Source: Gemmatimonadaceae bacterium (GTDB lineage: Bacteria > Gemmatimonadota > Gemmatimonadetes > Gemmatimonadales > Gemmatimonadaceae). From it: a stretch of DNA of 64,000 bases. The DNA is taken from contig JBJMOW010000005.1 of assembly GCA_045803545.1 (NCBI GenBank), positions 960,001-1,024,000 of the forward strand, in the 5' to 3' direction. The position numbers were made by a program, and so were the translations under genes. Shown here piece by piece: positions 34,535-45,074 of the stretch (position 1 is the first letter of the stretch; the number at the start of each line of letters is the position of its first letter). The notes below the pieces were generated by a model. It made no database searches. It had not been told where the DNA came from and worked only from the letters and a program-made list of their open reading frames with translations.

Positions 34535-35016
34535 TGAATCACCTCAGTTTTTTAAAATCTTTTTTCTCACCCATTGACGAGCCCCTCGGCTAGAATTTCT
34601 CGGGGACTAGACCTTACCCCGTTCAAGAGCCTTACGGAATGGCGAATTTCATATCAGGAGAATGGGTTTCCTATCACTCGGGCGGAACGCTTGAGGCCTA
34701 CGAGTGACTTGTTGGGACAACGCGTAAATAAAACGAGGGTCGAGGGTATTACTCTCGACGAGGTCTCTTGGACCTCAGCATGAGTGCAGACAACGGACTC
34801 TTGCGGCCAAGGTGACGACTCCAATCAGCTGATGGAAATTGACCTCGGGTGGTAGAAAAACGACATTTTCCCAGGCCCCCGACGCCTCGTCTTTTTTGGG
34901 TTACCAATAGGGGCGAGCGGATCACAGACCGTGCGTTTTTTGGCGTAGCCGAAGGCTGGCCGAATTGGGCTCGCTTCGAGGGCTCAACACGGCCGCCGCT
35001 ACAAAAAGGGTTGCGC

Positions 35017-35040
35017 AAGGTTTACTTTTAAGTCAACCTT
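35017..35040. promoter_or_regulatory. putative antitoxin operator palindrome
   Basis: AAGGTTTACTT-TT-AAGTCAACCTT (10/11 matching arms), adjacent to a TTGCGC -35-like hexamer and the toxin start. Confidence 0.6.
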
Positions 35041-35438
35041 TGAAACCCATTACTGAGCTAATCCGCCAAGGGAAGGCGTGTGCGGTCTATTTCGTGGCTG
35101 ATAACGGACGGTTCCGTGCTAAGGAGTACTTCGACTCAGCCGACAAGAAAGATCGAGCCCGTCTTCACGCTCTCGTCAAGATCGTCTCTGACGCGGGCAA
35201 GCTTGCGAGCGATGGTATGGGACATTGGCTCAAAGGGAAGTTCAAGAAAGTGTACGAATTCAAGACAAAGAAGTGCCGGTGTTTCGCCTTACAGCGAGGG
35301 CCGGATTACTACCTGATGAACGCGGCCGACAAGGCCAAGCCGAAAAAACAGGAGAAGGATTACGAACGAGCTCTTGAACTACGCGAGAGACTCGTCACTC
35401 AATTCGACCAAGGCGAAAGCGATGAAAGAGGGCGGTAA
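35040..35438 (+). CDS. RelE/HigB (Gp49-like) toxin (start uncertain)
   Basis: Basic protein with KEYFDS...DRARL, LKG...VYEFK..CR.F, K.K.K pattern; first gene of the TAC operon. Confidence 0.75.
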   Translation: MKPITELIRQGKACAVYFVADNGRFRAKEYFDSADKKDRARLHALVKIVSDAGKLASDGMGHWLKGKFKKVYEFKTKKCRCFALQRGPDYYLMNAADKAKPKKQEKDYERALELRERLVTQFDQGESDERGR

Positions 35439-35877
35439 TAGAACTGGTAACTGGCTCACGGATCAGGGAGCCGACAATGCTGAAGTGCGCGCCTACGGAG
35501 AAGAACTGGCAATCGCAAGCGGCGCCGAGGCGATTGCCCGCGCAATGGAGTCTTCTGGAATTACTCGAGCAGCGCTTGCCGAGCGTCTCGGGTGCCACAA
35601 AAGCTTTGTAACCCGCGTGTTGTCCGGTCCGCAGAACATGACCTTAGCGACAATGGGCGCATTTCTTTGGGGCTGCGGTTATGAGGTCAAATCGATAGAC
35701 ACTGAGCCTTTAGGAACTCAGGAGTTCGTTGAGGAGCCGATCAAGGTAGAAGTGACCGTACAGGCAGTCGATCAGTTTGTAGCGTCATGGGAAGCCGTTC
35801 CAAGTTTCACTGAGTTCTTCGCCAACGAGGTTGTTGAGCGCGACACGGCCCCCAACAACCTCGCACTGGTTGCTTAA
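35422..35877 (+). CDS. HigA-like XRE HTH antitoxin with C-terminal extension (ChAD-like)
   Basis: ITRAALAERLG.HKSFVTRVLSG..NMTLAT; ~60-aa acidic/aromatic tail ending NNLALVA. Confidence 0.8.
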   Translation: MKEGGNRTGNWLTDQGADNAEVRAYGEELAIASGAEAIARAMESSGITRAALAERLGCHKSFVTRVLSGPQNMTLATMGAFLWGCGYEVKSIDTEPLGTQEFVEEPIKVEVTVQAVDQFVASWEAVPSFTEFFANEVVERDTAPNNLALVA

Positions 35878-36368
35878 TGGACACAAGCAAACCCGCAGGG
35901 ATTCGCTTCGACCAGATCTATCTTCACAGGGCGAACTTCATGCATCGCGAGGGCGCGCTGAACCTTCCCCACGACACGCCTCATCCTGCGAACTTTTCGA
36001 TTGGTGTTAGTCTGCAGTATTACCGAAGCACCGTGCCAGGCAGAGCAGGCGTCGGGGTGACTGTGGCCACTGATCCAACCGATCAAACGGTGCTCTACCA
36101 TTTTCAGGTAGAAATGGTGGCGCTCGCTGGGGAAATCTTGGGCGAACCCAACATGCCAATATCCGAATTCATGCGGGGTCCAGCATTGGTCGCTCTCGTC
36201 CCCTTCCTGAGGGAAGCCATTGCTAACCTGACGATGCGTGGGCGGTTCGGCCCTGTTTGGCTCCATCCAATGAACCTGCAACAAATCCTACTTGAGTCCG
36301 GCAGCAGGGTGGATCTGGAATTACGGGCGACTGAAGAAGTTTCCGATAAGGAAAAAGCAACAGCATAG
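35877..36368 (+). CDS. SecB-like chaperone
   Basis: I.FDQIYL...F N-terminus and L.PFLREAIANLT.RG.FGP..L.PMN SecB signature; TAATG overlap with the antitoxin. Confidence 0.85.
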   Translation: MDTSKPAGIRFDQIYLHRANFMHREGALNLPHDTPHPANFSIGVSLQYYRSTVPGRAGVGVTVATDPTDQTVLYHFQVEMVALAGEILGEPNMPISEFMRGPALVALVPFLREAIANLTMRGRFGPVWLHPMNLQQILLESGSRVDLELRATEEVSDKEKATA

Positions 36369-36385
36369 GATTCCACGAACGAGCG

Positions 36386-36637
36386 ATGGGCTACGGTGGC
36401 CTCGGGACTTCATCTCGAGTCCATGGACAAGGTGGACGACCATACCTGGACGCTTCTCGGAAGAAGGATGCGTCCGTTTGGAGCGCGGGGGAGCTAGTAC
36501 GGGTAGTAGTCCAGCAGACGAGACCGGATTCAACGACCGTTCGAATTATCTCAAAGAAAAGAAAGGCGACGAACGTTGCCGCACGGGGCGACTACTCTCA
36601 GGCGATCTTCAACGACATCGAGCTCAAAATGAAATAA
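36386..36637 (+). pseudogene. probable C-terminal remnant of an unknown gene
   Basis: Protein-like C-terminus (SAGELVRVVV..TTVRIISKKR..TNVAA) with no good start or RBS. Confidence 0.35.
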
Positions 36638-36771: not shown

Positions 36772-39087
36772 TCAAGCGGCTGTGCGCGGTTGGTATAGAT
36801 ACTTCTGAAAACCCGCGAACACTCTTCCTATCTCTTCGGGTTTGCCCAACTCGGCGACTGCGTCGGCGATTGAGTGGTGGTACTTGAGGTGGAGGAGTGG
36901 GGTGAGCTTGTCGCGATCGAGCTCACGGACCCCTTCGTGAATGTAATGCGAAAGGACGAAGTCTAGAAATCGTTGCTGCTTGTCGGTGAAGTGACTCCTA
37001 ATATCTACCTTCGCCCCATCTGCACGCTCCTGCCGAGTAATCGTGGGTAGGGCATACGCAACGTGTGCTAGGACGTCGAATAGGTCGCTCTTCTCGGCGT
37101 CGATCACGCGTTGCATTTCGGCCATCTGTTCGGCCCCAAACCCCTTTTCCGCAAGGCCGCTCAACAATCTCGAGCGAGTGTCGGGATTACTCCAGATACT
37201 GCGGAGTTCAGCTTCGTCCTTGAAGAATTCCGGAAGCTTCCCGAAAAGCAGTTCGATGAACTGCTGCGCAGACATTGGCGTTCCGTCGGGATGCCAGAAG
37301 GTGGTCACCATCATGTGTTGGATTGTTCTGGCTTTACCGTCTGCAAGCTTCACCTTGATTTTCTTCGGTGGTGGAGGGGGAGCAGGACCTGGCCCCTCCG
37401 GACCAGGGCCTCGCGGCGTTTTAGGTTCGACCGGTTCGGGCTCGATAGGCTCGCCATCCCACTCGGGATCGCTGAAGTGCTGGTGAGCTTTTACAAAATC
37501 GTAGATCGTAAAGTAGTACTTACCGTCGTATAGTCGCGTACCACGGCCGATAATCTGTTTGAATTCCACTATCGAATTGATTGGCCGCATCAGTACGATA
37601 TTCCGAATATTCCTCGCATCGACTCCGGTAGACAGTTTTTGCGAAGTCGTCAGAATCGTAGGAATGGTTTTCTCGTTGTCCTGGAAGTCCCGCAAGTGCT
37701 GCTCGCCAAGTGCCCCGTCGTTGGATGTGACGCGTTCGCAATAGCGAGGATCACTGCTCGCTTTCATTTGGTTGATCAGATCACGAACAGCGAGCGCGTG
37801 ATCCTGAGTAGCGCAGAAGACCAGCGTCTTCTCCTTCTGGTCTATTTGGTCCATCATGATGCGCACTCGCTCTGCTTCACGCGCCTCGATTTCGATCACT
37901 TTGTTAAAGTCGCTCTCCGTGTAGCGCTTACCAGCTTCGATCTCTCCCTCGATCAGATTGTCGTCGGGCGTATAGACGTATTCGTCGAGCGTCGTAGAGA
38001 TCTGCTTCACCTTAAACGGCGTCAGGAAGCCGTCGTTGATCCCCTCTTTTAAGGAGTAGGTGTAGACGGGCTCACCGAAGTAGGCGTAGGTGTCGATGTT
38101 TTCCTGACGCTTCGGGGTCGCCGTGAGGCCAAGCTGCACCGCGGGCGCGAAGTATTCGAGTATCCCACGCCAATTGCTCTCATCGTTGGCACCGCCGCGG
38201 TGGCACTCGTCGATGACGATGAAGTCGAAGAAATCCGGCAGATATTCCCCAAAGTATGGAGATTCCTTCCCGTCCTTCGGCGGACCGCTCATGAAAGTCT
38301 GAAAGATCGTGAAGAACAAGCTCCCGTTTTTCGGCACCTTCCCTTTCTTGCGAATGTCGGCAGGGTCGATACGTACCATCGCGTCTTCCGGAAAAGATGT
38401 AAACGCGTTGTAGGCTTGATCTGCCAGGATGTTTCGATCGGCAAGGAAGAGAATGCGAGGCCGCCGGGATGGCTCACGCGTGAGATTCCAACGACTCTGG
38501 AACAGTTTCCATGCGATCTGAAAAGCGATGAAGGTTTTACCAGTTCCTGTAGCAAGGGTCAGGAGGACGCGCTGCCGGCCGGCGGCGATTGCCTCTAGTA
38601 CTCTGTCAACGGCAATGTCCTGGAAGTACCTAGCTGCGAATGTTCCTCCTTTATCCTCGAACGGGACCGCGTCGAACCGTTCTCGCCAAGGGTTCGCTTT
38701 GGCGAATGTGAGGTTCCATAACTCGTTCGGGCTCGGATAGTTCTCAAGTTTCGCTTCCGTGCCCGTCAGCATATCTACGCCATAGATGGCTTGGCCGTTT
38801 GTCGCGTAGGCGAAACGAACGGCAAGTTTCGCCGCATAGTTTTTGGCTTGCCCCAATCCTTCGGTAAGCATCTTGTCCCAGGCCTTTGCCTCAATGACCG
38901 CAAGCTTGTGGTTGCGGTAGACGAGGATGTAATCGGCACAGAGCGACTTAGAGCGCCGTCCCGACGCCTCGATCCGACCTAGCGTGAACGCATACTCACG
39001 AACGATTCGACTGCCCTCCACCATGCCCCACCCCGCCGCTCTTAGAGCGGGATCTATGACCTCGGCTCTCGTCTCCGTTTCGTTCAT
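36772..39087 (-). CDS. hsdR: type I restriction enzyme R subunit (EcoEI-like)
   Basis: ADY..IEAK nuclease motif, ATGTGKT, IDECHR, GLTATP, QIIGRGTR. Confidence 0.95.
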   Translation of the reverse strand: MNETETRAEVIDPALRAAGWGMVEGSRIVREYAFTLGRIEASGRRSKSLCADYILVYRNHKLAVIEAKAWDKMLTEGLGQAKNYAAKLAVRFAYATNGQAIYGVDMLTGTEAKLENYPSPNELWNLTFAKANPWRERFDAVPFEDKGGTFAARYFQDIAVDRVLEAIAAGRQRVLLTLATGTGKTFIAFQIAWKLFQSRWNLTREPSRRPRILFLADRNILADQAYNAFTSFPEDAMVRIDPADIRKKGKVPKNGSLFFTIFQTFMSGPPKDGKESPYFGEYLPDFFDFIVIDECHRGGANDESNWRGILEYFAPAVQLGLTATPKRQENIDTYAYFGEPVYTYSLKEGINDGFLTPFKVKQISTTLDEYVYTPDDNLIEGEIEAGKRYTESDFNKVIEIEAREAERVRIMMDQIDQKEKTLVFCATQDHALAVRDLINQMKASSDPRYCERVTSNDGALGEQHLRDFQDNEKTIPTILTTSQKLSTGVDARNIRNIVLMRPINSIVEFKQIIGRGTRLYDGKYYFTIYDFVKAHQHFSDPEWDGEPIEPEPVEPKTPRGPGPEGPGPAPPPPPKKIKVKLADGKARTIQHMMVTTFWHPDGTPMSAQQFIELLFGKLPEFFKDEAELRSIWSNPDTRSRLLSGLAEKGFGAEQMAEMQRVIDAEKSDLFDVLAHVAYALPTITRQERADGAKVDIRSHFTDKQQRFLDFVLSHYIHEGVRELDRDKLTPLLHLKYHHSIADAVAELGKPEEIGRVFAGFQKYLYQPRTAA

Positions 39088-39169
39088 CGGTTTGACTTCT
39101 TGAGGGCGCTAAGGAGTGTTTTTAGGGGTGTCCAAAGCAGCGGCATGTGCTCGCTCAATTTGCATTTAA

Positions 39170-40330
39170 CTAGAGCTGGCCAGTGAAAGCTCGATGCAGC
39201 AAGGATTTTTTCAGCGCTCCAAGCGCAGCGAGCTTGGTTTCGTATAGCGCTTCGAGGCGGCGCGTTTTGTGGGACAGTGACTCGATGCTCTCCACGAGAG
39301 TCACTTGCGCTGCTAGAGACTCTGGAATCGGAATCGGAATGGAATTCAACGCTTTTTGGGTCAGCTTTGGCTGAGCAGCGCCTCTGATATACTGGTCAAT
39401 CTGGATGGTCTCCAGGTAAAACTCGACGAATCGCTGGGTCGCGATGTTTTCAAACTTCAGTATGTGCGCATGATTGTTTACCCAATATTTCCCGGATACT
39501 GAAAATGCGATTGGCGTAGCTCTCATCAGCAAGTTTGCACCGTCTTCAGACACTAGTAGGGCATCGCAATCGAAGATGTAGTCGGCAACGCGATCGACGA
39601 TCCCCGAGGCTCCGTAATACGGATACTTGCCCGCTTTGCGCATGTTCCTTGTGATTGGAATTCGCCTGCTGTCCAGGTTAATCGAAACCTGATTTATGGT
39701 CTTTTCGACCCAACCCTCTCCGCGTCGGCGAAACAGCGCGTGAGTGTGACTTTTCAGAATGCTACGTGCGTTTTCAAGGTTCTTTTGAGCAGTGGCCTGA
39801 GCCCCCGCGATGCTCTCGAGTGCGTCTGTCATTGTTTCGACAATTCGCGTCTGCTCTGACAGCGGAGGAACCGGTATCGGCACCTTTCCGAGCTTCTCGC
39901 GGCTTATTCGCTTACGGGTAGTGCCCGTTGCCTCGGCGTCGACTGCCTGGAGGTACTCAGGTGTTCGACAGTATAGATCAAAAAACTCTGGAAGGAGTCG
40001 ACTCCGATCAAAACGAACAATTGTGCAATCGACGGCGGTGATCATGCGCTTGCCTGTATCCGGTACGATGCAGCTTCGACCAATGGGATCGGGCAGTCGG
40101 GAGATAAGGGAGTCGCCTTCGAAGATTTCTGTGCAGCGCAACCTCTTAAATGTCGTCTCCGAGATATGCCGTGCCTTCTCTCCTCGATCCTTAAAAACTC
40201 CCTCCCCTACGTTCCCAGTTTGAACAAGTCGAATTCCCTCTGACGACTGATCCTTGCTCTCCACCCAGTCGCCATCCGTGAAGACTTCACAAAGTTTCGC
40301 GAGTTGAACGGTTGGCCACGAATCATTCAC
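39170..40330 (-). CDS. hsdS: type I R-M specificity subunit
   Basis: Two TRDs with conserved IPVPPLSEQ..IV and LKKSLLHRAFTGQL segments. Confidence 0.95.
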   Translation of the reverse strand: MNDSWPTVQLAKLCEVFTDGDWVESKDQSSEGIRLVQTGNVGEGVFKDRGEKARHISETTFKRLRCTEIFEGDSLISRLPDPIGRSCIVPDTGKRMITAVDCTIVRFDRSRLLPEFFDLYCRTPEYLQAVDAEATGTTRKRISREKLGKVPIPVPPLSEQTRIVETMTDALESIAGAQATAQKNLENARSILKSHTHALFRRRGEGWVEKTINQVSINLDSRRIPITRNMRKAGKYPYYGASGIVDRVADYIFDCDALLVSEDGANLLMRATPIAFSVSGKYWVNNHAHILKFENIATQRFVEFYLETIQIDQYIRGAAQPKLTQKALNSIPIPIPESLAAQVTLVESIESLSHKTRRLEALYETKLAALGALKKSLLHRAFTGQL

Positions 40331-41781
40331 AAGATTGCCTTGATACTCTCGAGCAACTCCGCGCCCTCAGCATCCAAAGAAGCAATCTCGTTGATGATCT
40401 CTTGCGGACTACGATGGACGGCTTCCGGCCCCCTCGTCGGATTCCTGACCGACAAGTCAAAACTTTTCGTGTGAATAGTACTGGCCTCAATTGTCCAGCT
40501 CTTTGGCGAATTGGCAAACACTCGCTGCAGTTCGACAAACTCTGCGAGGTCCTTATCATTCAGCGGATTCGTCTTGCCGAGATTACGACCCGGTTCGAGC
40601 TGGTAGAACCAAATCGTCTTCGTCGGGGCACCCTTCTCGAAGAACAGCACAACCGTCTTCACTCCCGCTCCTTGGAAAGTCCCCGCTGGGCAGTCCAACA
40701 CCGTATGCAGATTGCAGCTTTCAAGCAACAATTTGCGGAGGCTAACGGACGCGTTATCGGTATTCGATAGAAACGTGTTTTTAATTACGAGGCCTGCCCG
40801 CCCTCCCGCTCTGAGAATCTTGATAAAGTGTTGGAGAAAGAGAAATGCCGTCTCTCCAGTACGGATGGGAAAGTTTTGCTGCACCTCCTTCCGTTCCTTC
40901 CCCCCGAATGGCGGGTTAGCCATCACAACTTCGAAGCGGTCCTTCTCCTGAATGTCAGACAGATTCTCGCTAAGGGTGTTTGTGTGCACGATGTTCGGCG
41001 CCTCGATCCCGTGCAGGATCATGTTCATGATCCCGATCACGTAGGCGAGCGGCTTTTTTTCTTTCCCGTAGAATGTGCTTTCCTGGAGCGTCCTCGACTC
41101 CTTCGTAGATAGCCCAGGCTTCCCTTTTAGGTACTCGAAGGACTCGCATAGGAACCCGGCAGAGCCAACGGCTCCGTCATAGATACGCTCACCAATCTTC
41201 GGCTGCACAACCTGCACGATGGCTCGAATCAGCGGACGGGGAGTGTAATACTCTCCGCCATTGCGCCCGGCGTTGCCCATATTTCTGATTTTCGCTTCGT
41301 AGAGGTGCGACAGCTCGTGCTTCTCGGTCTGCGAGCCGAATCTCAACTCGTCGATCTGATCGATGATTTCGCGCAGATTGTAGCCGGAGGTGATCTTGTT
41401 TTTTATCTCCCCGAAGATCTCACCAATCTTGTATTCGATCGTGTTCGGGCCAGTTGCACTCTGCTTAAAGCCGTGGAGATAGGGAAAGAGTTTGCCGTTG
41501 ACAAAATCGCGGAGATCGTCGCCGGTTTGTGCTTTGTTGTGATCGATCTGGCCATCGCTGCCTTTCGGCGCCGCCCAACTTTCCCAGCGGTAATCCTTAT
41601 CAAGAATGAAAGTCTGTTTCTTTCCGTGGAGCTCGGCCTCCAACCGCTTCTCCTGCTCGAGCGCGTCAAGGTATTTCAGGAATAGCAGCCACGATGTCTG
41701 CTCGGTGTAGTCCAACTCGGTCGTGCAGCCTGCTTCTTTCCTTAGGACGTCATCGATGTTCTTGAAGGCTTGCTCGAACAC
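40327..41781 (-). CDS. hsdM: type I R-M N6-adenine methyltransferase
   Basis: GEYYTPR, DGAVGSAGFL, NPPF. Confidence 0.96.
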   Translation of the reverse strand: MFEQAFKNIDDVLRKEAGCTTELDYTEQTSWLLFLKYLDALEQEKRLEAELHGKKQTFILDKDYRWESWAAPKGSDGQIDHNKAQTGDDLRDFVNGKLFPYLHGFKQSATGPNTIEYKIGEIFGEIKNKITSGYNLREIIDQIDELRFGSQTEKHELSHLYEAKIRNMGNAGRNGGEYYTPRPLIRAIVQVVQPKIGERIYDGAVGSAGFLCESFEYLKGKPGLSTKESRTLQESTFYGKEKKPLAYVIGIMNMILHGIEAPNIVHTNTLSENLSDIQEKDRFEVVMANPPFGGKERKEVQQNFPIRTGETAFLFLQHFIKILRAGGRAGLVIKNTFLSNTDNASVSLRKLLLESCNLHTVLDCPAGTFQGAGVKTVVLFFEKGAPTKTIWFYQLEPGRNLGKTNPLNDKDLAEFVELQRVFANSPKSWTIEASTIHTKSFDLSVRNPTRGPEAVHRSPQEIINEIASLDAEGAELLESIKAIL

Positions 41782-41929: not shown

Positions 41930-41974
41930 AATCGGGACGGCGGGATTTGAACCCGCGACCCCCTGAACCCCATT
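41930..41974 (-). repeat. 45-bp direct repeat copy 1: 3' fragment of tRNA-Pro(GGG), att-like site
   Basis: Identical to 45021-45065. Minus strand reads AATGGGGTTCAGGGGGTCGCGGGTTCAAATCCCGCCGTCCCGATT (anticodon loop, T-arm, acceptor 3' strand). Confidence 0.92.
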
Positions 41975-42169
41975 GACCCCAGCACTGTAATTGTAAGTCG
42001 TTGTAATCGCGCGCTTCCCATAGGGGAATATCGACATTTGGGCCAGCAATTCCGTGACTTGCCACGTGAGAATTTCGGAAATATTCGGCTCCGAAGTATT
42101 GATATCAATTCTTTTCACACTGTGAAATACCCAAAGTCGCAACAGGAATATCAAGGCCAAGGTCATGGA

Positions 42170-42490
42170 CTAAAATTTTCGTGCTGTCCGGAGCGGATCT
42201 GCGGGAGGGCGATTGGAAACAGTCAGGCTCTCAGGCGGTGCGTCCCATGGTCGCGCGTATTCTTCGACGCAGCGCATGATTAGATCGTCGTCGAGCCGTG
42301 CAGTTTCGGGAGTGCGGCCGCCAACGTTCTCCATCAAGCTTACTAACGCATCTATGATCTCACCTTGGCCGACTCCCATGCCCTTCGCCACCAGCACGTA
42401 GTGGCGTGCAGCTTCGGTGAGCAACGGTGATGCAGGTTTGTTGCCCTGCGCTCTCTTATACTCTTCGACAAATCGGTCAGCAGCGTTCAT
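42170..42490 (-). CDS. hypothetical small helical protein
   Basis: ATGA-coupled to the upstream ORF; resembles 32518-32808. Confidence 0.6.
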   Translation of the reverse strand: MNAADRFVEEYKRAQGNKPASPLLTEAARHYVLVAKGMGVGQGEIIDALVSLMENVGGRTPETARLDDDLIMRCVEEYARPWDAPPESLTVSNRPPADPLRTARKF

Positions 42491-42723
42491 TTCTCTGCCC
42501 CGCCGTTGCCGTAGGTCCATCCTTCAAGGTCTTTCGGTATTCCAAGCGAGCCTAGATCAATTCCTGATGGAGGTGTGAATGTGTGACCACCAGCAACATC
42601 ATCGGCAGCCATGTGAGCGGAGACGTAGCTACCTAAGTCAGAGTCCTCGAAGAGCACGTGCCATCGGCCTTTTCGCTGAACTATACTGACCACGCCTTTC
42701 GCAGTCTTATAGTAGAAGTACAA
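42487..42723 (-). CDS. hypothetical small protein
   Basis: 78-aa globular-looking ORF (TTG start) coupled to the next gene. Confidence 0.6.
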   Translation of the reverse strand: MYFYYKTAKGVVSIVQRKGRWHVLFEDSDLGSYVSAHMAADDVAGGHTFTPPSGIDLGSLGIPKDLEGWTYGNGGAEK

Positions 42724-42794
42724 TGGTAGAATCCGATTCGAAGTTCGGCGCTCCTCGCTGCAAGAATCGTGGTTCGCCGTGTGCTTCGCTTCTG

Positions 42795-42992
42795 CTACTG
42801 GGACGAAGGCTTTGGCTGGATGGCGGGTTCAAAGAGGGCGTCCGCTTTTCCCCAATGGTGCTCTTGACGGCATGCCGGGCAGTTCACCGGACTCAGTTCA
42901 GCGGGCAAATTTTCGAAGATCGAGCGATCCATTGCGAAACCGGTGAAAACGAGCTTGCCGGTCGCTGGACACTTTATGAAAATTCGATTCAA
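42795..42992 (-). CDS. small zinc-ribbon-like protein
   Basis: IKCP.TGK.V.TG...CPACRQEHHW. Confidence 0.65.
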   Translation of the reverse strand: MNRIFIKCPATGKLVFTGFAMDRSIFENLPAELSPVNCPACRQEHHWGKADALFEPAIQPKPSSQ

Positions 42993-43042
42993 GTGTGTGC
43001 GCGTGAATGCGAGGCTTTTTCACCTGCAAGCGCAGTACCTCC

Positions 43043-43393
43043 TTACCATGCCGGTCCGCACTTCACAACGCGGACGGCGAGCCTGCACCACACCTGTAGG
43101 CGCTCGGCCGAACTCGCCTCCCAATCCTCGGGGACCGGGGCGAGTCGGCGCTTCTCCCCGTTCTCACTTTCGAAACAAAGCCAACCGAGCTCGTAGCCTG
43201 CCGGTACGACAAAGCTGCGTCGAAATGGGTTTAACCTGCGCCGGGTTATTCGCCGTTCGGGCCCGGTGTAAGGCGCGGCTGAGGTACCAACGGCGGCTCT
43301 GCGCTCTTTTTTGCGTCTCTCGGCAGCTGTCGGTAGGACGAGCCAAACCTCCCACCGGCGATTGTCTGAATCCCGGAAATTCCTGTAACCCAT
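43043..43393 (-). CDS. hypothetical Trp-rich small protein (paralog of 43697-43963)
   Basis: YR.F.D...W.VW...GWLCFES..EKRRLAPVP..W. Confidence 0.75.
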   Translation of the reverse strand: MGYRNFRDSDNRRWEVWLVLPTAAERRKKERRAAVGTSAAPYTGPERRITRRRLNPFRRSFVVPAGYELGWLCFESENGEKRRLAPVPEDWEASSAERLQVWCRLAVRVVKCGPAW

Positions 43394-43468
43394 TTCGGCT
43401 GGCCTCCAAGAGCGTCCCAGACAAGACTCTCTGAAGCACAGCCAGTGCCGCTTTCATGCAAACGCACG

Positions 43469-43708
43469 ATGGATAAACGAACTAAGGAACAACGTATCGC
43501 GCAGGCTCGTGCTGAGATAAAAAGGCGCATAGCGCGCGTCTGTCGAACGCTGCCCGAAGCGGAATTCGAGATTCTCTTAGATCGAATGACCGCGATTCAC
43601 TGCAAGTACGACATTTTTCCGCACATACCGGAGATCGCTCAACTGGCCGAGTTGGAGACTGCCATACAAGAGGAATTTCGAGCGTTCAAACGGCAACTAG
43701 GTTCCTGA
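43469..43708 (+). CDS. hypothetical small helical protein
   Basis: 79-aa ORF between the two paralogs. Confidence 0.5.
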   Translation: MDKRTKEQRIAQARAEIKRRIARVCRTLPEAEFEILLDRMTAIHCKYDIFPHIPEIAQLAELETAIQEEFRAFKRQLGS

Positions 43709-43963
43709 CGGAATAATTTTCCCGTTTGACGATGGTTGCGGTCGCGTTGGTGAAGCCGTTTTCAAAAGCGCGCGCAACCTTGCATCGGAAAAGCTTTCCC
43801 AGTTTTTGGGAATCGGTGCGAGACGTTTACGCTCGTTGCTCGATTCGAAAGTGAGCCAACCCTTTTCAAATCCTTTGGAGAGAATCTTTCCTACTGTGGG
43901 TAGAGTCGCCCAAACTCTCCAAAGAACTTCAGCGGAATCAAGAAATTCTCTGTAAGGCATCAC
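43697..43963 (-). CDS. hypothetical Trp-rich small protein (paralog of 43043-43393)
   Basis: YREF.D...WRVW...GWLTFES..ERKRLAPIP..W. Confidence 0.75.
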   Translation of the reverse strand: MMPYREFLDSAEVLWRVWATLPTVGKILSKGFEKGWLTFESSNERKRLAPIPKNWESFSDARLRALLKTASPTRPQPSSNGKIIPSGT

Positions 43964-44087
43964 GCGATCCTGTGGTTTCGATTATAGCGCTCAATCCGTA
44001 GATCTACAGCGTCTTCCGCTGTTCGGTCCTTAGAAACCGGATAGAAACTTGGCGGCTCGCCCGGGCCTGCCGTCCTGCACAAGTGGA

Positions 44088-44879
44088 TCAGCTACCCGTA
44101 ATAACCGTGTCGCGTTTGTACGGCGCCGTCACTCTCAGCATTCCGTCGACCTCGCACCTATCGGCGAGGGCTGTTATCGTAAGCTCGTTCCTGGCGCCTG
44201 TGCGCGGCGGATTCAATTCAGTGTCCTCTGGCGACTCCACAACCGCGTCCGGGTTTGCCAGTGCCTCGATGTATTCGCATGCGAGCCGACGGGCTTCTGT
44301 TTCTTGCGCCTTGTCACCAACCCCGAGATCGGATCGACGGCACTTGACCGAGCAACTCGTCTGCTTCCCGTTGACCTTGCGGAAAATGTGCAGAATCTCG
44401 CCACGTCGAAACTCGCCGACGCGAACGGTGAACTCGGGGTGAAGCGGGTGCTTGATCCGCTGAACGGACCAAGTCTCTTCGGTTTCGTCTTCATTTGTTC
44501 TCCTTGAGATGGTGTGATCTAGCAATGCTTCGGACGGTGGCGTTGCTTGGAACGGACTTCGTGCGCGCTGGCCTTCCCCGACCACCGGGCGGCTGTGGGG
44601 AGGGAGGTCCTGGCGGCGGATGCGCGGCGCGTTGGTGCGACCTGCGTTAGCGATCTTGCCGCGTTTGACGAGGTTGCCCAGATAATCAGCGGTGTAGCCT
44701 GAGGCGCGGGCCGCTTCTGTGAGCGAAAGAGTTTCGGCGGCGAACAACGCTTGCGCGCGTTCAAGCTCGACGGCGGCGATGTCCCAGAGTCGGGCGCAAG
44801 CAGCATCGCCGAAACTGCGAAGGGTCTCCGCTCGCTCTCTCCAAAGAGCGGGCAAGTCGCCAGGAATGATTTTGTTCAT
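44088..44879 (-). pseudogene. excisionase-like HTH gene read through into a frameshifted, truncated integrase-like N-terminus
   Basis: LSLTEAARASGYTADYLGNLVKRG HTH; internal AAGGAG+ATG at 44494 is out of frame by one base; no recombinase catalytic domain. Confidence 0.55.
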
Positions 44880-44971
44880 ACGTCGCCAGTACAGCGAACT
44901 GCTCTTAACGAATGGCGACGGCAGCCCCAAAGTATTGCTAAAATTGCGGAACCGTAGCGGGGCTGGAAAAG

Positions 44972-45006
44972 CAAAAAACCCGCACGAGCGTAACTCGTTG
45001 CGAGTT
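44972..45006 (-). terminator. intrinsic terminator downstream of the tRNA 3' fragment
   Basis: Minus strand AACTCGCAACGAGTTACGCTCGTGCGGGTTTTTT: hairpin plus T6. Confidence 0.6.
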
Positions 45007-45020
45007 GAAGCATTTATATC

Positions 45021-45074
45021 AATCGGGACGGCGGGATTTGAACCCGCGACCCCCTGAACCCCATTCAGGTGCGC
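45021..45074 (-). repeat. direct repeat copy 2: longer 3' fragment of tRNA-Pro(GGG) lacking the 5' acceptor strand and D-loop
   Basis: Minus strand GCGCACCTGAATGGGGTTCAGG...GTCCCGA gives a full anticodon arm; the upstream sequence cannot pair with the acceptor 3' strand. Confidence 0.88.

What the first reader, a model, noticed from the sequence alone, without database searches (positions are those of the whole stretch)
35011..36368. Toxin-antitoxin-chaperone (HigB-HigA-SecB) operon beside a type I R-M system
Seen: three overlapping genes encode a RelE/HigB-like toxin, an XRE antitoxin with a long C-terminal tail, and a SecB-fold chaperone. They converge on hsdMSR inside an AT-richer island. 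Known: in TAC systems (Mycobacterium HigBA1-SecB-TA, E. coli HigBAC and CmdTAC) the antitoxin depends on the chaperone, and some act as phage sensors. Inference: a divergent anti-phage TAC from a poorly studied phylum, in a two-layer defence island.
Basis: partly seen in the sequence, partly recalled or inferred. Interest (0 to 1): 0.75.

Follow-up and report, generated by a model that had tools for sequence, protein, structure and literature searches.

The report
Chaperone-guarded toxin with copied destruction tag
Three overlapping bacterial genes encode a predicted mRNA-cutting toxin, its predicted antidote and a SecB-type chaperone, a known three-part design that likely halts the cell when a phage infects, and the antidote ends in a near copy of the host's own protein-disposal tag, which would make it quick to destroy.

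Summary
Window 35040-36368 encodes a Gp49/HigB-fold toxin with the main catalytic positions kept, an XRE antitoxin with a ~60-residue tail, and a SecB-fold protein, the only SecB found in this genome. They converge on intact hsdMSR in a lower-GC accessory stretch. The host is most likely Gemmatimonadota, where SecB is sparse (21 of 401 genomes) and usually follows a tailed antitoxin. This is a HigBAC-type toxin-antitoxin-chaperone (TAC) operon, a known kind.

Close homologues carry the tag exactly, and one relative matches its own host's variant 9/9. Terminal LAA/VA ClpXP degrons are known in TACs; whole-tag mimicry was not found in my searches, but it is a minority (3 of 38 host-tail pairs).

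Anti-phage function is inferred only (about 60%); R-M genes neighbour just 3 of 20 related loci. No chaperone-tail complex model could be run.

The parts
35020..35037 (+). Imperfect palindrome GTTTAC-N6-GTCAAC, likely the antitoxin operator overlapping the promoter -10 region
   Evidence: TTTAC is invariant in 11 of 11 aligned upstream regions of this toxin subfamily, consensus GTTTAC-N6-GTAAAC. The window's own palindrome occurs once in the window, 0.01 expected (pattern made from this site). Binding is inferred.
35040..35438 (+). ORF1, Gp49/HigB-family (RelE fold) predicted ribosome-dependent mRNase, 132 aa
   Evidence: Profile hits S. pneumoniae HigB 6af3 at E 3e-8 and Mtb HigB1 7awk at E 0.017. 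Model pLDDT 96.6. VIA Z 14.4, rmsd 2.0, 109 aligned to 6af4; Z 13.4, rmsd 3.1, 114 aligned to 7awk. R80 and K98 are at least 90% conserved in 76 sequences.
35422..35877 (+). ORF2, HigA-like XRE antitoxin, 151 aa
   Evidence: Pfam HTH_31 at E 5e-6; profile hits HipB and HigA structures at E about 0.002-0.004; homologues sit between toxin and secB.
35695..35874 (+). About 60-residue C-terminal tail (residues 92-151), candidate chaperone-addiction (ChAD) element: variable, acidic, six aromatic residues
   Evidence: Poorly conserved beyond the HTH in 20 homologues. Atlas neighbours of 97-100 aa align only to residues 6-98. A secB-less Gp49/XRE pair has a tail-less 106-aa antitoxin.
35848..35877 (+). 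Last nine codons, APNNLALVA*: near copy of the host tmRNA tag ANNNLALAA, predicted ClpXP degron
   Evidence: Host tag from ARAGORN. 7/9 identity, best of 20,352 ORFs, next best 5/9. Homologues P0022 and P0023 end ANNNLALAA. The host has clpX and clpP.
35877..36368 (+). ORF3, SecB-fold chaperone (HigC-like), 163 aa; only SecB-family gene found in the genome
   Evidence: Profile hits SecB 1fx3 at E 8e-17 and Mtb Rv1957 at E 0.002. Model pLDDT 92. Foldseek top hits are all SecB or Rv1957. One match in the 93%-complete genome.
36772..41781 (-). Neighbouring type I R-M genes hsdM (41781-40327), hsdS (40330-39170), hsdR (39087-36772); context, not part of the TAC
   Evidence: Pfam and PADLOC matches, e.g. 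REase_I 4e-139, MTase_I 6e-159.
41930..45074 (-). Two copies of the 3' half of tRNA-Pro(GGG) (41930-41974 and 45021-45074), likely attachment-site scars; context
   Evidence: 45-nt perfect direct repeat, identical to the genome's tRNA-Pro(GGG). No whole tRNA and no PF00589 integrase in the window.

Best explanation
This is a three-gene toxin-antitoxin-chaperone operon of the HigBAC type, in which a SecB-fold protein likely shields the tail of an XRE antitoxin that ends in a near copy of the host's tmRNA tag, so that losing the chaperone, most likely to a newly made phage protein, would let ClpXP destroy the antitoxin and free a predicted ribosome-dependent mRNA-cutting toxin. Shown here: the three folds, gene order and overlaps, conservation of the unit, the palindrome, the tag-like end, and clpX/clpP in the host. 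Inferred from characterised TACs: (1) the antitoxin N-terminus neutralises the toxin, and its HTH represses the operon at 35020-35037; (2) a chaperone tetramer binds the tail's aromatic and beta-prone segments; (3) a competing client displaces the tail; (4) the LALVA end is degraded by ClpXP; (5) the toxin cleaves mRNA in the ribosomal A site and halts the infected cell.
For: Folds: SecB; closest to S. pneumoniae HigB and the Mtb TAC toxin HigB1. Read from the profile alignment, E73, K75, R80, K98 and K102 align with HigB1 E66, R68, R77, K95 and K99, named as catalytic-pocket residues in PMC9098466. All 8 toxin matches at E<1e-20 among 401 family genomes lie next to a secB match; about half of these toxins were in the query alignment. 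SecB is patchy (21 of 401 phylum genomes; 31 of 401 family genomes), unlike a housekeeping gene. 35 of 64 distinct upstream tails end in AA or VA, against 3.1% of roughly called host proteins. CmdA ends LAA and Mtb HigA1 ends VA, both ClpXP-degraded, and a terminal LVA is a known ClpX degron. The three E. coli TACs tested in these papers (HigBAC, CmdTAC, MqsRAC) defend against phage. 6 of 20 related loci have a strong PADLOC neighbour (PARIS-like, R-M, MADS-like).
Against: Nothing here tests toxicity, chaperone dependence or defence. HigB1 F93 corresponds to A96, the N73 loop is four residues shorter, and the K113/R117 register holds E116/T120 (R115 and R117 lie beside it). The tail is strongly acidic (12 D/E against 2 K/R), whereas E. 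coli SecB motifs disfavour acids. The locus is not in a recognisable prophage, and ORF3 has no match in 50,697 phage records. 14 of 20 related loci had no strong PADLOC hit among the ORFs submitted, and 4 of 20 sit beside IS1595 transposases. The Mtb TAC is described as stress-responsive rather than anti-phage. E. coli NT1F31 HigBAC needs no ClpXP, so proteolysis is not universal in TACs.
Confidence: 0.6

Rival explanations
1. It is a genuine TAC, but it senses protein-folding or export stress (misfolded clients titrate the chaperone), or simply stabilises the mobile DNA that carries it, and is not phage defence.
For: This is the model for the Mtb system, whose toxin is among the closest folds. 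Related TACs lie beside IS1595 transposases (4 of 20) or a relaxase (1 of 20). The locus has att-like scars and lower GC.
Against: All E. coli TACs tested in the papers read protect against phage. This locus and 6 of 20 relatives neighbour defence genes.
Confidence: 0.27
2. ORF1-ORF2 is an ordinary two-part HigBA pair whose acidic tail wraps the basic toxin, and ORF3 is a passenger or a general export chaperone.
For: ORF3 is the only SecB found in the genome. The tail is acidic and the toxin lysine-rich. One relative has a tailed antitoxin with no secB match (L291).
Against: About 95% of phylum genomes searched have no SecB match. ORF3 scores far below the cut-offs of housekeeping SecB models. 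This SecB clade follows tailed antitoxins of several unrelated families (XRE, MqsA-like, others). TAATG coupling joins ORF2 to ORF3.
Confidence: 0.08
3. The module is decaying: the toxin is no longer active or not expressed.
For: No Shine-Dalgarno sequence before TTG 35040 and no consensus sigma-70 promoter. Several HigB1 residues are not kept. A broken copy of the subfamily exists in G652.
Against: All three frames are intact. Homologues are 85% and 75% identical in the toxin. R80 and K98 and the palindrome are conserved.
Confidence: 0.05

Closest known systems
Mycobacterium tuberculosis TAC HigB1-HigA1-SecB(TA) (Rv1955-Rv1957)
   Same: Gene order T-A-C; Gp49-type toxin with a long C-terminal helix (VIA Z 13.4 to 7awk); XRE antitoxin with a C-terminal extension ending Val-Ala; SecB fold (Foldseek hit 5mtw).
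   Different: About 20% sequence identity. The tail is acidic and about 60 aa rather than basic-aromatic and about 45 aa. The end copies most of the host tmRNA tag, not just VA. F93 and the N73 loop are not kept. It lies in an accessory stretch beside type I R-M.
E. coli NT1F31 HigBAC (Mets et al., 10.1101/2024.02.24.581848)
   Same: HigB-type RNase, tailed HigA, HigC chaperone; aromatic residues in the tail.
   Different: That antitoxin ends Leu-Pro, is ClpXP-independent, has a 97-aa tail and lies in a lambdoid prophage. This one ends LALVA in a host with clpXP and is not in a recognisable prophage. Sequences were not compared directly.
CmdTAC / PD-T4-9 (PMC11618068)
   Same: SecB-like chaperone; antitoxin ending in an ssrA-like ClpXP degron (LAA); weak PADLOC PD-T4-9_C hit for ORF3 (E 0.03).
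   Different: Its toxin is an mRNA ADP-ribosyltransferase and its antitoxin has no XRE domain.
Streptococcus pneumoniae HigBA (PDB 6af3/6af4)
   Same: Closest solved toxin fold (Z 14.4); E66, R68, R73 and K92 positions are matched.
   Different: A two-component system as far as I recall (not checked here), without a chaperone gene or tail.

Membership tests
Toxin-antitoxin-chaperone (TAC) system | Tricistronic toxin-antitoxin-secB-like arrangement | tested here: met
   same order in homologous loci.
Toxin-antitoxin-chaperone (TAC) system | Third gene has the SecB fold and is not the housekeeping secB | tested here: met
   fold; patchy, far below equivalog cut-offs.
Toxin-antitoxin-chaperone (TAC) system | Antitoxin carries a variable C-terminal extension beyond its antitoxin domain | tested here: met
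Toxin-antitoxin-chaperone (TAC) system | Chaperone binds the extension | not tested
Toxin-antitoxin-chaperone (TAC) system | Neutralisation depends on the chaperone | not testable with these tools
   Needs a toxicity-rescue assay.
Gp49/HigB ribosome-dependent mRNase | RelE fold with long C-terminal helix | tested here: met
   46 of 76 aligned members hit PF05973 at E<=0.01.
Gp49/HigB ribosome-dependent mRNase | Catalytic residues (HigB1 E66, R68, R77, K95) | tested here: met
   E73, K75, R80, K98 by profile alignment; accessory F93 and N73 not kept.
Anti-phage TAC (HigBAC, CmdTAC, MqsRAC) | Protection against phage, triggered by a phage protein | not testable with these tools
   Only context was examined, and it is mixed.
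ClpXP-dependent TAC | Aliphatic C-terminal degron and a host ClpXP | tested here: met
   Ends LALVA; clpX and clpP present. Degradation itself is untested.
Housekeeping export SecB | Score at NCBIfam secB cut-offs and grxC-secB-gpsA context | tested here: not met
   About 20 bits against cut-offs of 103-277; neighbours are TA genes.

The most novel reading that the evidence does not exclude
Gemmatimonadota TAC antitoxins have repeatedly acquired a whole copy of their own host's tmRNA tag, often including the leading alanine that tmRNA does not encode. Because this phylum appears to lack SspB, the conserved front half of the tag points to an unidentified tag reader. It also puts the antitoxin in the same degradation queue as trans-translation products. 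The toxin's own output (cut mRNAs giving tagged proteins) would then compete for ClpXP and switch the system off, or tune its trigger to ribosome-rescue load.
Probability: 0.15. Interest if true: 0.7.

Novelty: new member of a known kind. Interest (0 to 1): 0.42.

Why it matters
It extends HigBAC-type TAC systems to a common but little-studied phylum with no housekeeping SecB detected. There the chaperone comes paired with several different toxin-antitoxin families, which offers a set of natural sensor-warhead swaps to test. If whole-tag mimicry is selected, these antitoxins are natural reporters of how Gemmatimonadota read the tmRNA tag without SspB, and they suggest a testable feedback between an mRNA-cutting toxin and ribosome rescue. 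The basic architecture and the use of a terminal ClpXP degron are already known.

Tried and rejected
A SecB tree, meant to count independent origins of tag-like tails, was not obtained because the script machine was lost. Repeated origin therefore rests only on such tails appearing on different antitoxin families.

DNA capture of the tag from the tmRNA gene was considered. In G000, G045 and G181 the tag codons match 23, 24 and 22 of 30 nt, with differences mostly at silent sites and unrelated flanks (3-9 of 21, 4-9 of 20). Recent capture is not supported there, but L125 matches 27 of 30 and old capture is not excluded.

Start at 35011 was rejected (out of frame). A prophage setting was not supported. 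Viral scans found one TAC-like contig and one solitary secB. A single-sequence PDB search for ORF1 found nothing, nor did the first metagenome scan. The pattern search for a tag directly before ATGGA found nothing at the fixed spacing used. Rfam found only tRNA-arm fragments. No RNA holder was listed. Contigs of run X1 agree with the sequence but may be the source sample. Three look-ups of earlier findings were empty.

Full report
Observation. The window holds three same-strand reading frames: ORF1 ending at 35438, ORF2 at 35422-35877 and ORF3 at 35877-36368, with 17-nt and 1-nt overlaps. In-frame choices are 34965 and 35040. Homologue P0020 begins at the residue equivalent to 35040. Eleven upstream regions of this toxin subfamily share GTTTAC-N6-GTAAAC just ahead of the start, with TTTAC invariant; here it reads GTTTAC-TTTTAA-GTCAAC at 35020-35037. 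I read this as the antitoxin's operator and take 35040 as the start (inference). No consensus sigma-70 promoter was found. hsdM, hsdS and hsdR are intact on the minus strand and end 403 nt from ORF3.

ORF3. Pfam SecB scores at its cut-off. A 78-sequence profile hits H. influenzae SecB at E 8e-17, E. coli SecB, and Mtb Rv1957 at E 0.002. The model (pLDDT 92) has SecB and Rv1957 chains as all its top Foldseek matches. It is the only SecB match in the 93%-complete genome and lies far below housekeeping secB cut-offs. SecB was found in 21 of 401 phylum genomes and 31 of 401 family genomes. The closest named relatives are mostly Gemmatimonadota, so that is the likely host phylum. One phylum match (G078, E 7e-48) looks canonical. 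In the close clade, secB generally follows a long-tailed gene, often an XRE or MqsA-like antitoxin. The gene upstream of that is often a toxin: of 52 candidate toxin ORFs from these loci (some were alternative frames of one locus), 25 hit Gp49 and 2 hit MqsR at E<=0.01. This fits passages of PMC4257090: outside alpha-, beta- and gamma-proteobacteria SecB is mostly TA-linked.

ORF1. It is a divergent Gp49/HigB. The search of representatives gave 68 hits including itself. The profile hits S. pneumoniae HigB at E 3e-8 and Mtb HigB1 at E 0.017. The model (pLDDT 96.6) aligns at Z 14.4, rmsd 2.0 over 109 residues to 6af4 and Z 13.4, rmsd 3.1 over 114 to 7awk, with other RelE members at Z 10 or less. 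Reading the profile alignment against residues named in passages of PMC9098466, E73, K75, R80, K98 and K102 match HigB1 E66, R68, R77, K95 and K99. R80 and K98 are at least 90% conserved. Against: F93 is A96, the N73 loop is shorter, and K113/R117 fall on E116/T120. Among 401 family genomes, 11 match the toxin profile at E<=1e-10. The 8 strongest all lie beside secB, though about half of them were in the query alignment. The 3 weak ones have no secB match: a classical pair with a tail-less 106-aa antitoxin, a pair with a short tail and a broken copy.

ORF2 and its end. An XRE HTH is followed by about 60 variable, acidic residues with six aromatics, the anatomy of a ChAD element as defined in passages of PMC5105189. 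The host tmRNA encodes ANNNLALAA; ORF2 ends APNNLALVA. That 7/9 match is the best among all 20,352 ORFs of at least 60 aa; the next best is 5/9. Of the four close homologues, two end exactly ANNNLALAA, one matches 7/9 and one 5/9. Of 64 distinct tails upstream of close SecB relatives, 35 end AA or VA and 7 (including this one) match some tag from the sampled genomes at 7/9 or better, 5 of them 9/9. The background is 3.1% AA/VA ends and 1 of 3503 (this gene).

Host tracking of the tag. In 38 pairs where both tail and host tag were known, 3 match their own tag at 7/9 or better: G045 9/9 (ANSELAMAA, a variant seen in 2 of 40 tags), G000 and G181. Permutation gave p 0.0009 for those three and 0.00015 for all pairs; kin are not independent, so these overstate. 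35 of 38 do not match. I left out duplicate assemblies, genomes without a tmRNA hit or a clear upstream gene, and one unpublished genome (G718). Six of 12 tag-like tails are preceded by the alanine that tmRNA carries but does not encode (my count). Codons differ at silent sites and flanks are unrelated. Both points favour selection on the peptide over recent DNA capture. The host has clpX, clpP and Clp_N-domain ATPases. SspB was not found in it, and 0 of 151 phylum genomes passed the cut-off.

What is known about the degron. Passages of PMC11618068 state that CmdA, like other TAC antitoxins, ends in LAA and is degraded by ClpP. Mets et al. (parts 1-2 of 11 and passages) and passages of PMC8165232 report the VA degron of Mtb HigA1 and a ClpXP-independent HigBAC. 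Passages of PMC10862746 show LVA ends are potent ClpX degrons and say upstream tag residues serve ClpA and SspB. A terminal degron is therefore known. Whole-tag, host-matched mimicry was not found in searches (listings only beyond the papers named), and Gemmatimonadota with SecB-like gave no paper. I did not see Supplementary Fig. 1 of PMC5105189 (TAC antitoxin alignments), the supplements of Mets et al., Texier 2021 or Sala 2013; any of them could already show such ends.

Setting. GC is 0.52-0.55 against 0.603 +/- 0.021 genome-wide. The flanking beta-lactamase-like gene is conserved in the genus, but no DNA match to the TAC was reported in 30 relatives, and hsdR/hsdM matched only one genome of another family. 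Two copies of the tRNA-Pro(GGG) 3' half lie at 41930 and 45021; the TAC is outside that pair, and the window has no tyrosine integrase match. Around 20 related loci I predicted 174 neighbour ORFs and sent 138 to Pfam and 50 to PADLOC. Six loci had a PADLOC hit below 1e-30 (PARIS-like AriAB, type III and type I R-M, a methyltransferase, mad3, HEC-04), 3 had R-M genes and 4 an IS1595 transposase. There was no control set. The R-M neighbour is thus local, and defence is plausible but not shown.

Mechanism and verdict. Most likely the chaperone holds and shields the antitoxin tail, a competing client displaces it, ClpXP removes the antitoxin through LALVA, and the toxin cuts ribosome-bound mRNA. 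All functional steps are inferred from characterised TACs. I put TAC identity near 0.9 and phage as the main trigger near 0.6. It is a new member of a known kind; the host-matched tag is the one feature worth a specialist's look. Interest 0.42.

Noticed in passing
L047, L092, L107, L135, L249:9572-9658(-), L257:3735-3820, L258:10268-10353, L264:10352-10434: In 8 of 119 distinct secB loci with at least 300 nt downstream, an atypical 83-87 nt tRNA-like gene with a long variable arm (TGG/Pro anticodon in the five folded by ARAGORN) lies 14-88 nt after secB. It is usually followed by a ~45-aa basic peptide (PGPKPETLKIEGDW motif); four such loci have an IS1595 transposase upstream of the toxin. It is absent from the window. 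It recalls irregular tRNAs beside TA systems (passages of PMC5389517). UGG reads CCA, the codon cut by Mtb HigB1.
   Followed up: partly
L293:2959-3456 (viral contig): A solitary SecB of this clade, with no toxin-antitoxin pair upstream, lies next to a phage Mu F-like head gene. It is a candidate phage-borne anti-TAC chaperone, since excess chaperone abolishes CmdTAC defence.
   Followed up: partly
L250 (G045:C2:221600-241500): The related TAC whose antitoxin ends in its host's exact tag sits about 2 kb from a fused PARIS-like AriAB gene (PADLOC E 7e-51).
   Followed up: no
window 41930-45074: A 3.1-kb segment between two tRNA-Pro 3' halves carries several small unannotated ORFs and a possible excisionase-like remnant (44088-44930), without integrase. 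Whole tRNA-Pro(GGG) genes lie elsewhere (C4:586892, C1:10950), with a third att copy at C4:598340.
   Followed up: partly
window 36386-36637: An 83-aa ORF between secB and hsdR has no Pfam match but a weak DNA match in a same-genus genome; it may be a gene remnant.
   Followed up: partly
L011, L015, L017, L019, L020, L138, L140, L204, L213: Some SecB-like genes follow 225-315 aa proteins with no obvious HTH that also end in AA-type tails; these may be undescribed TAC antitoxin classes.
   Followed up: no
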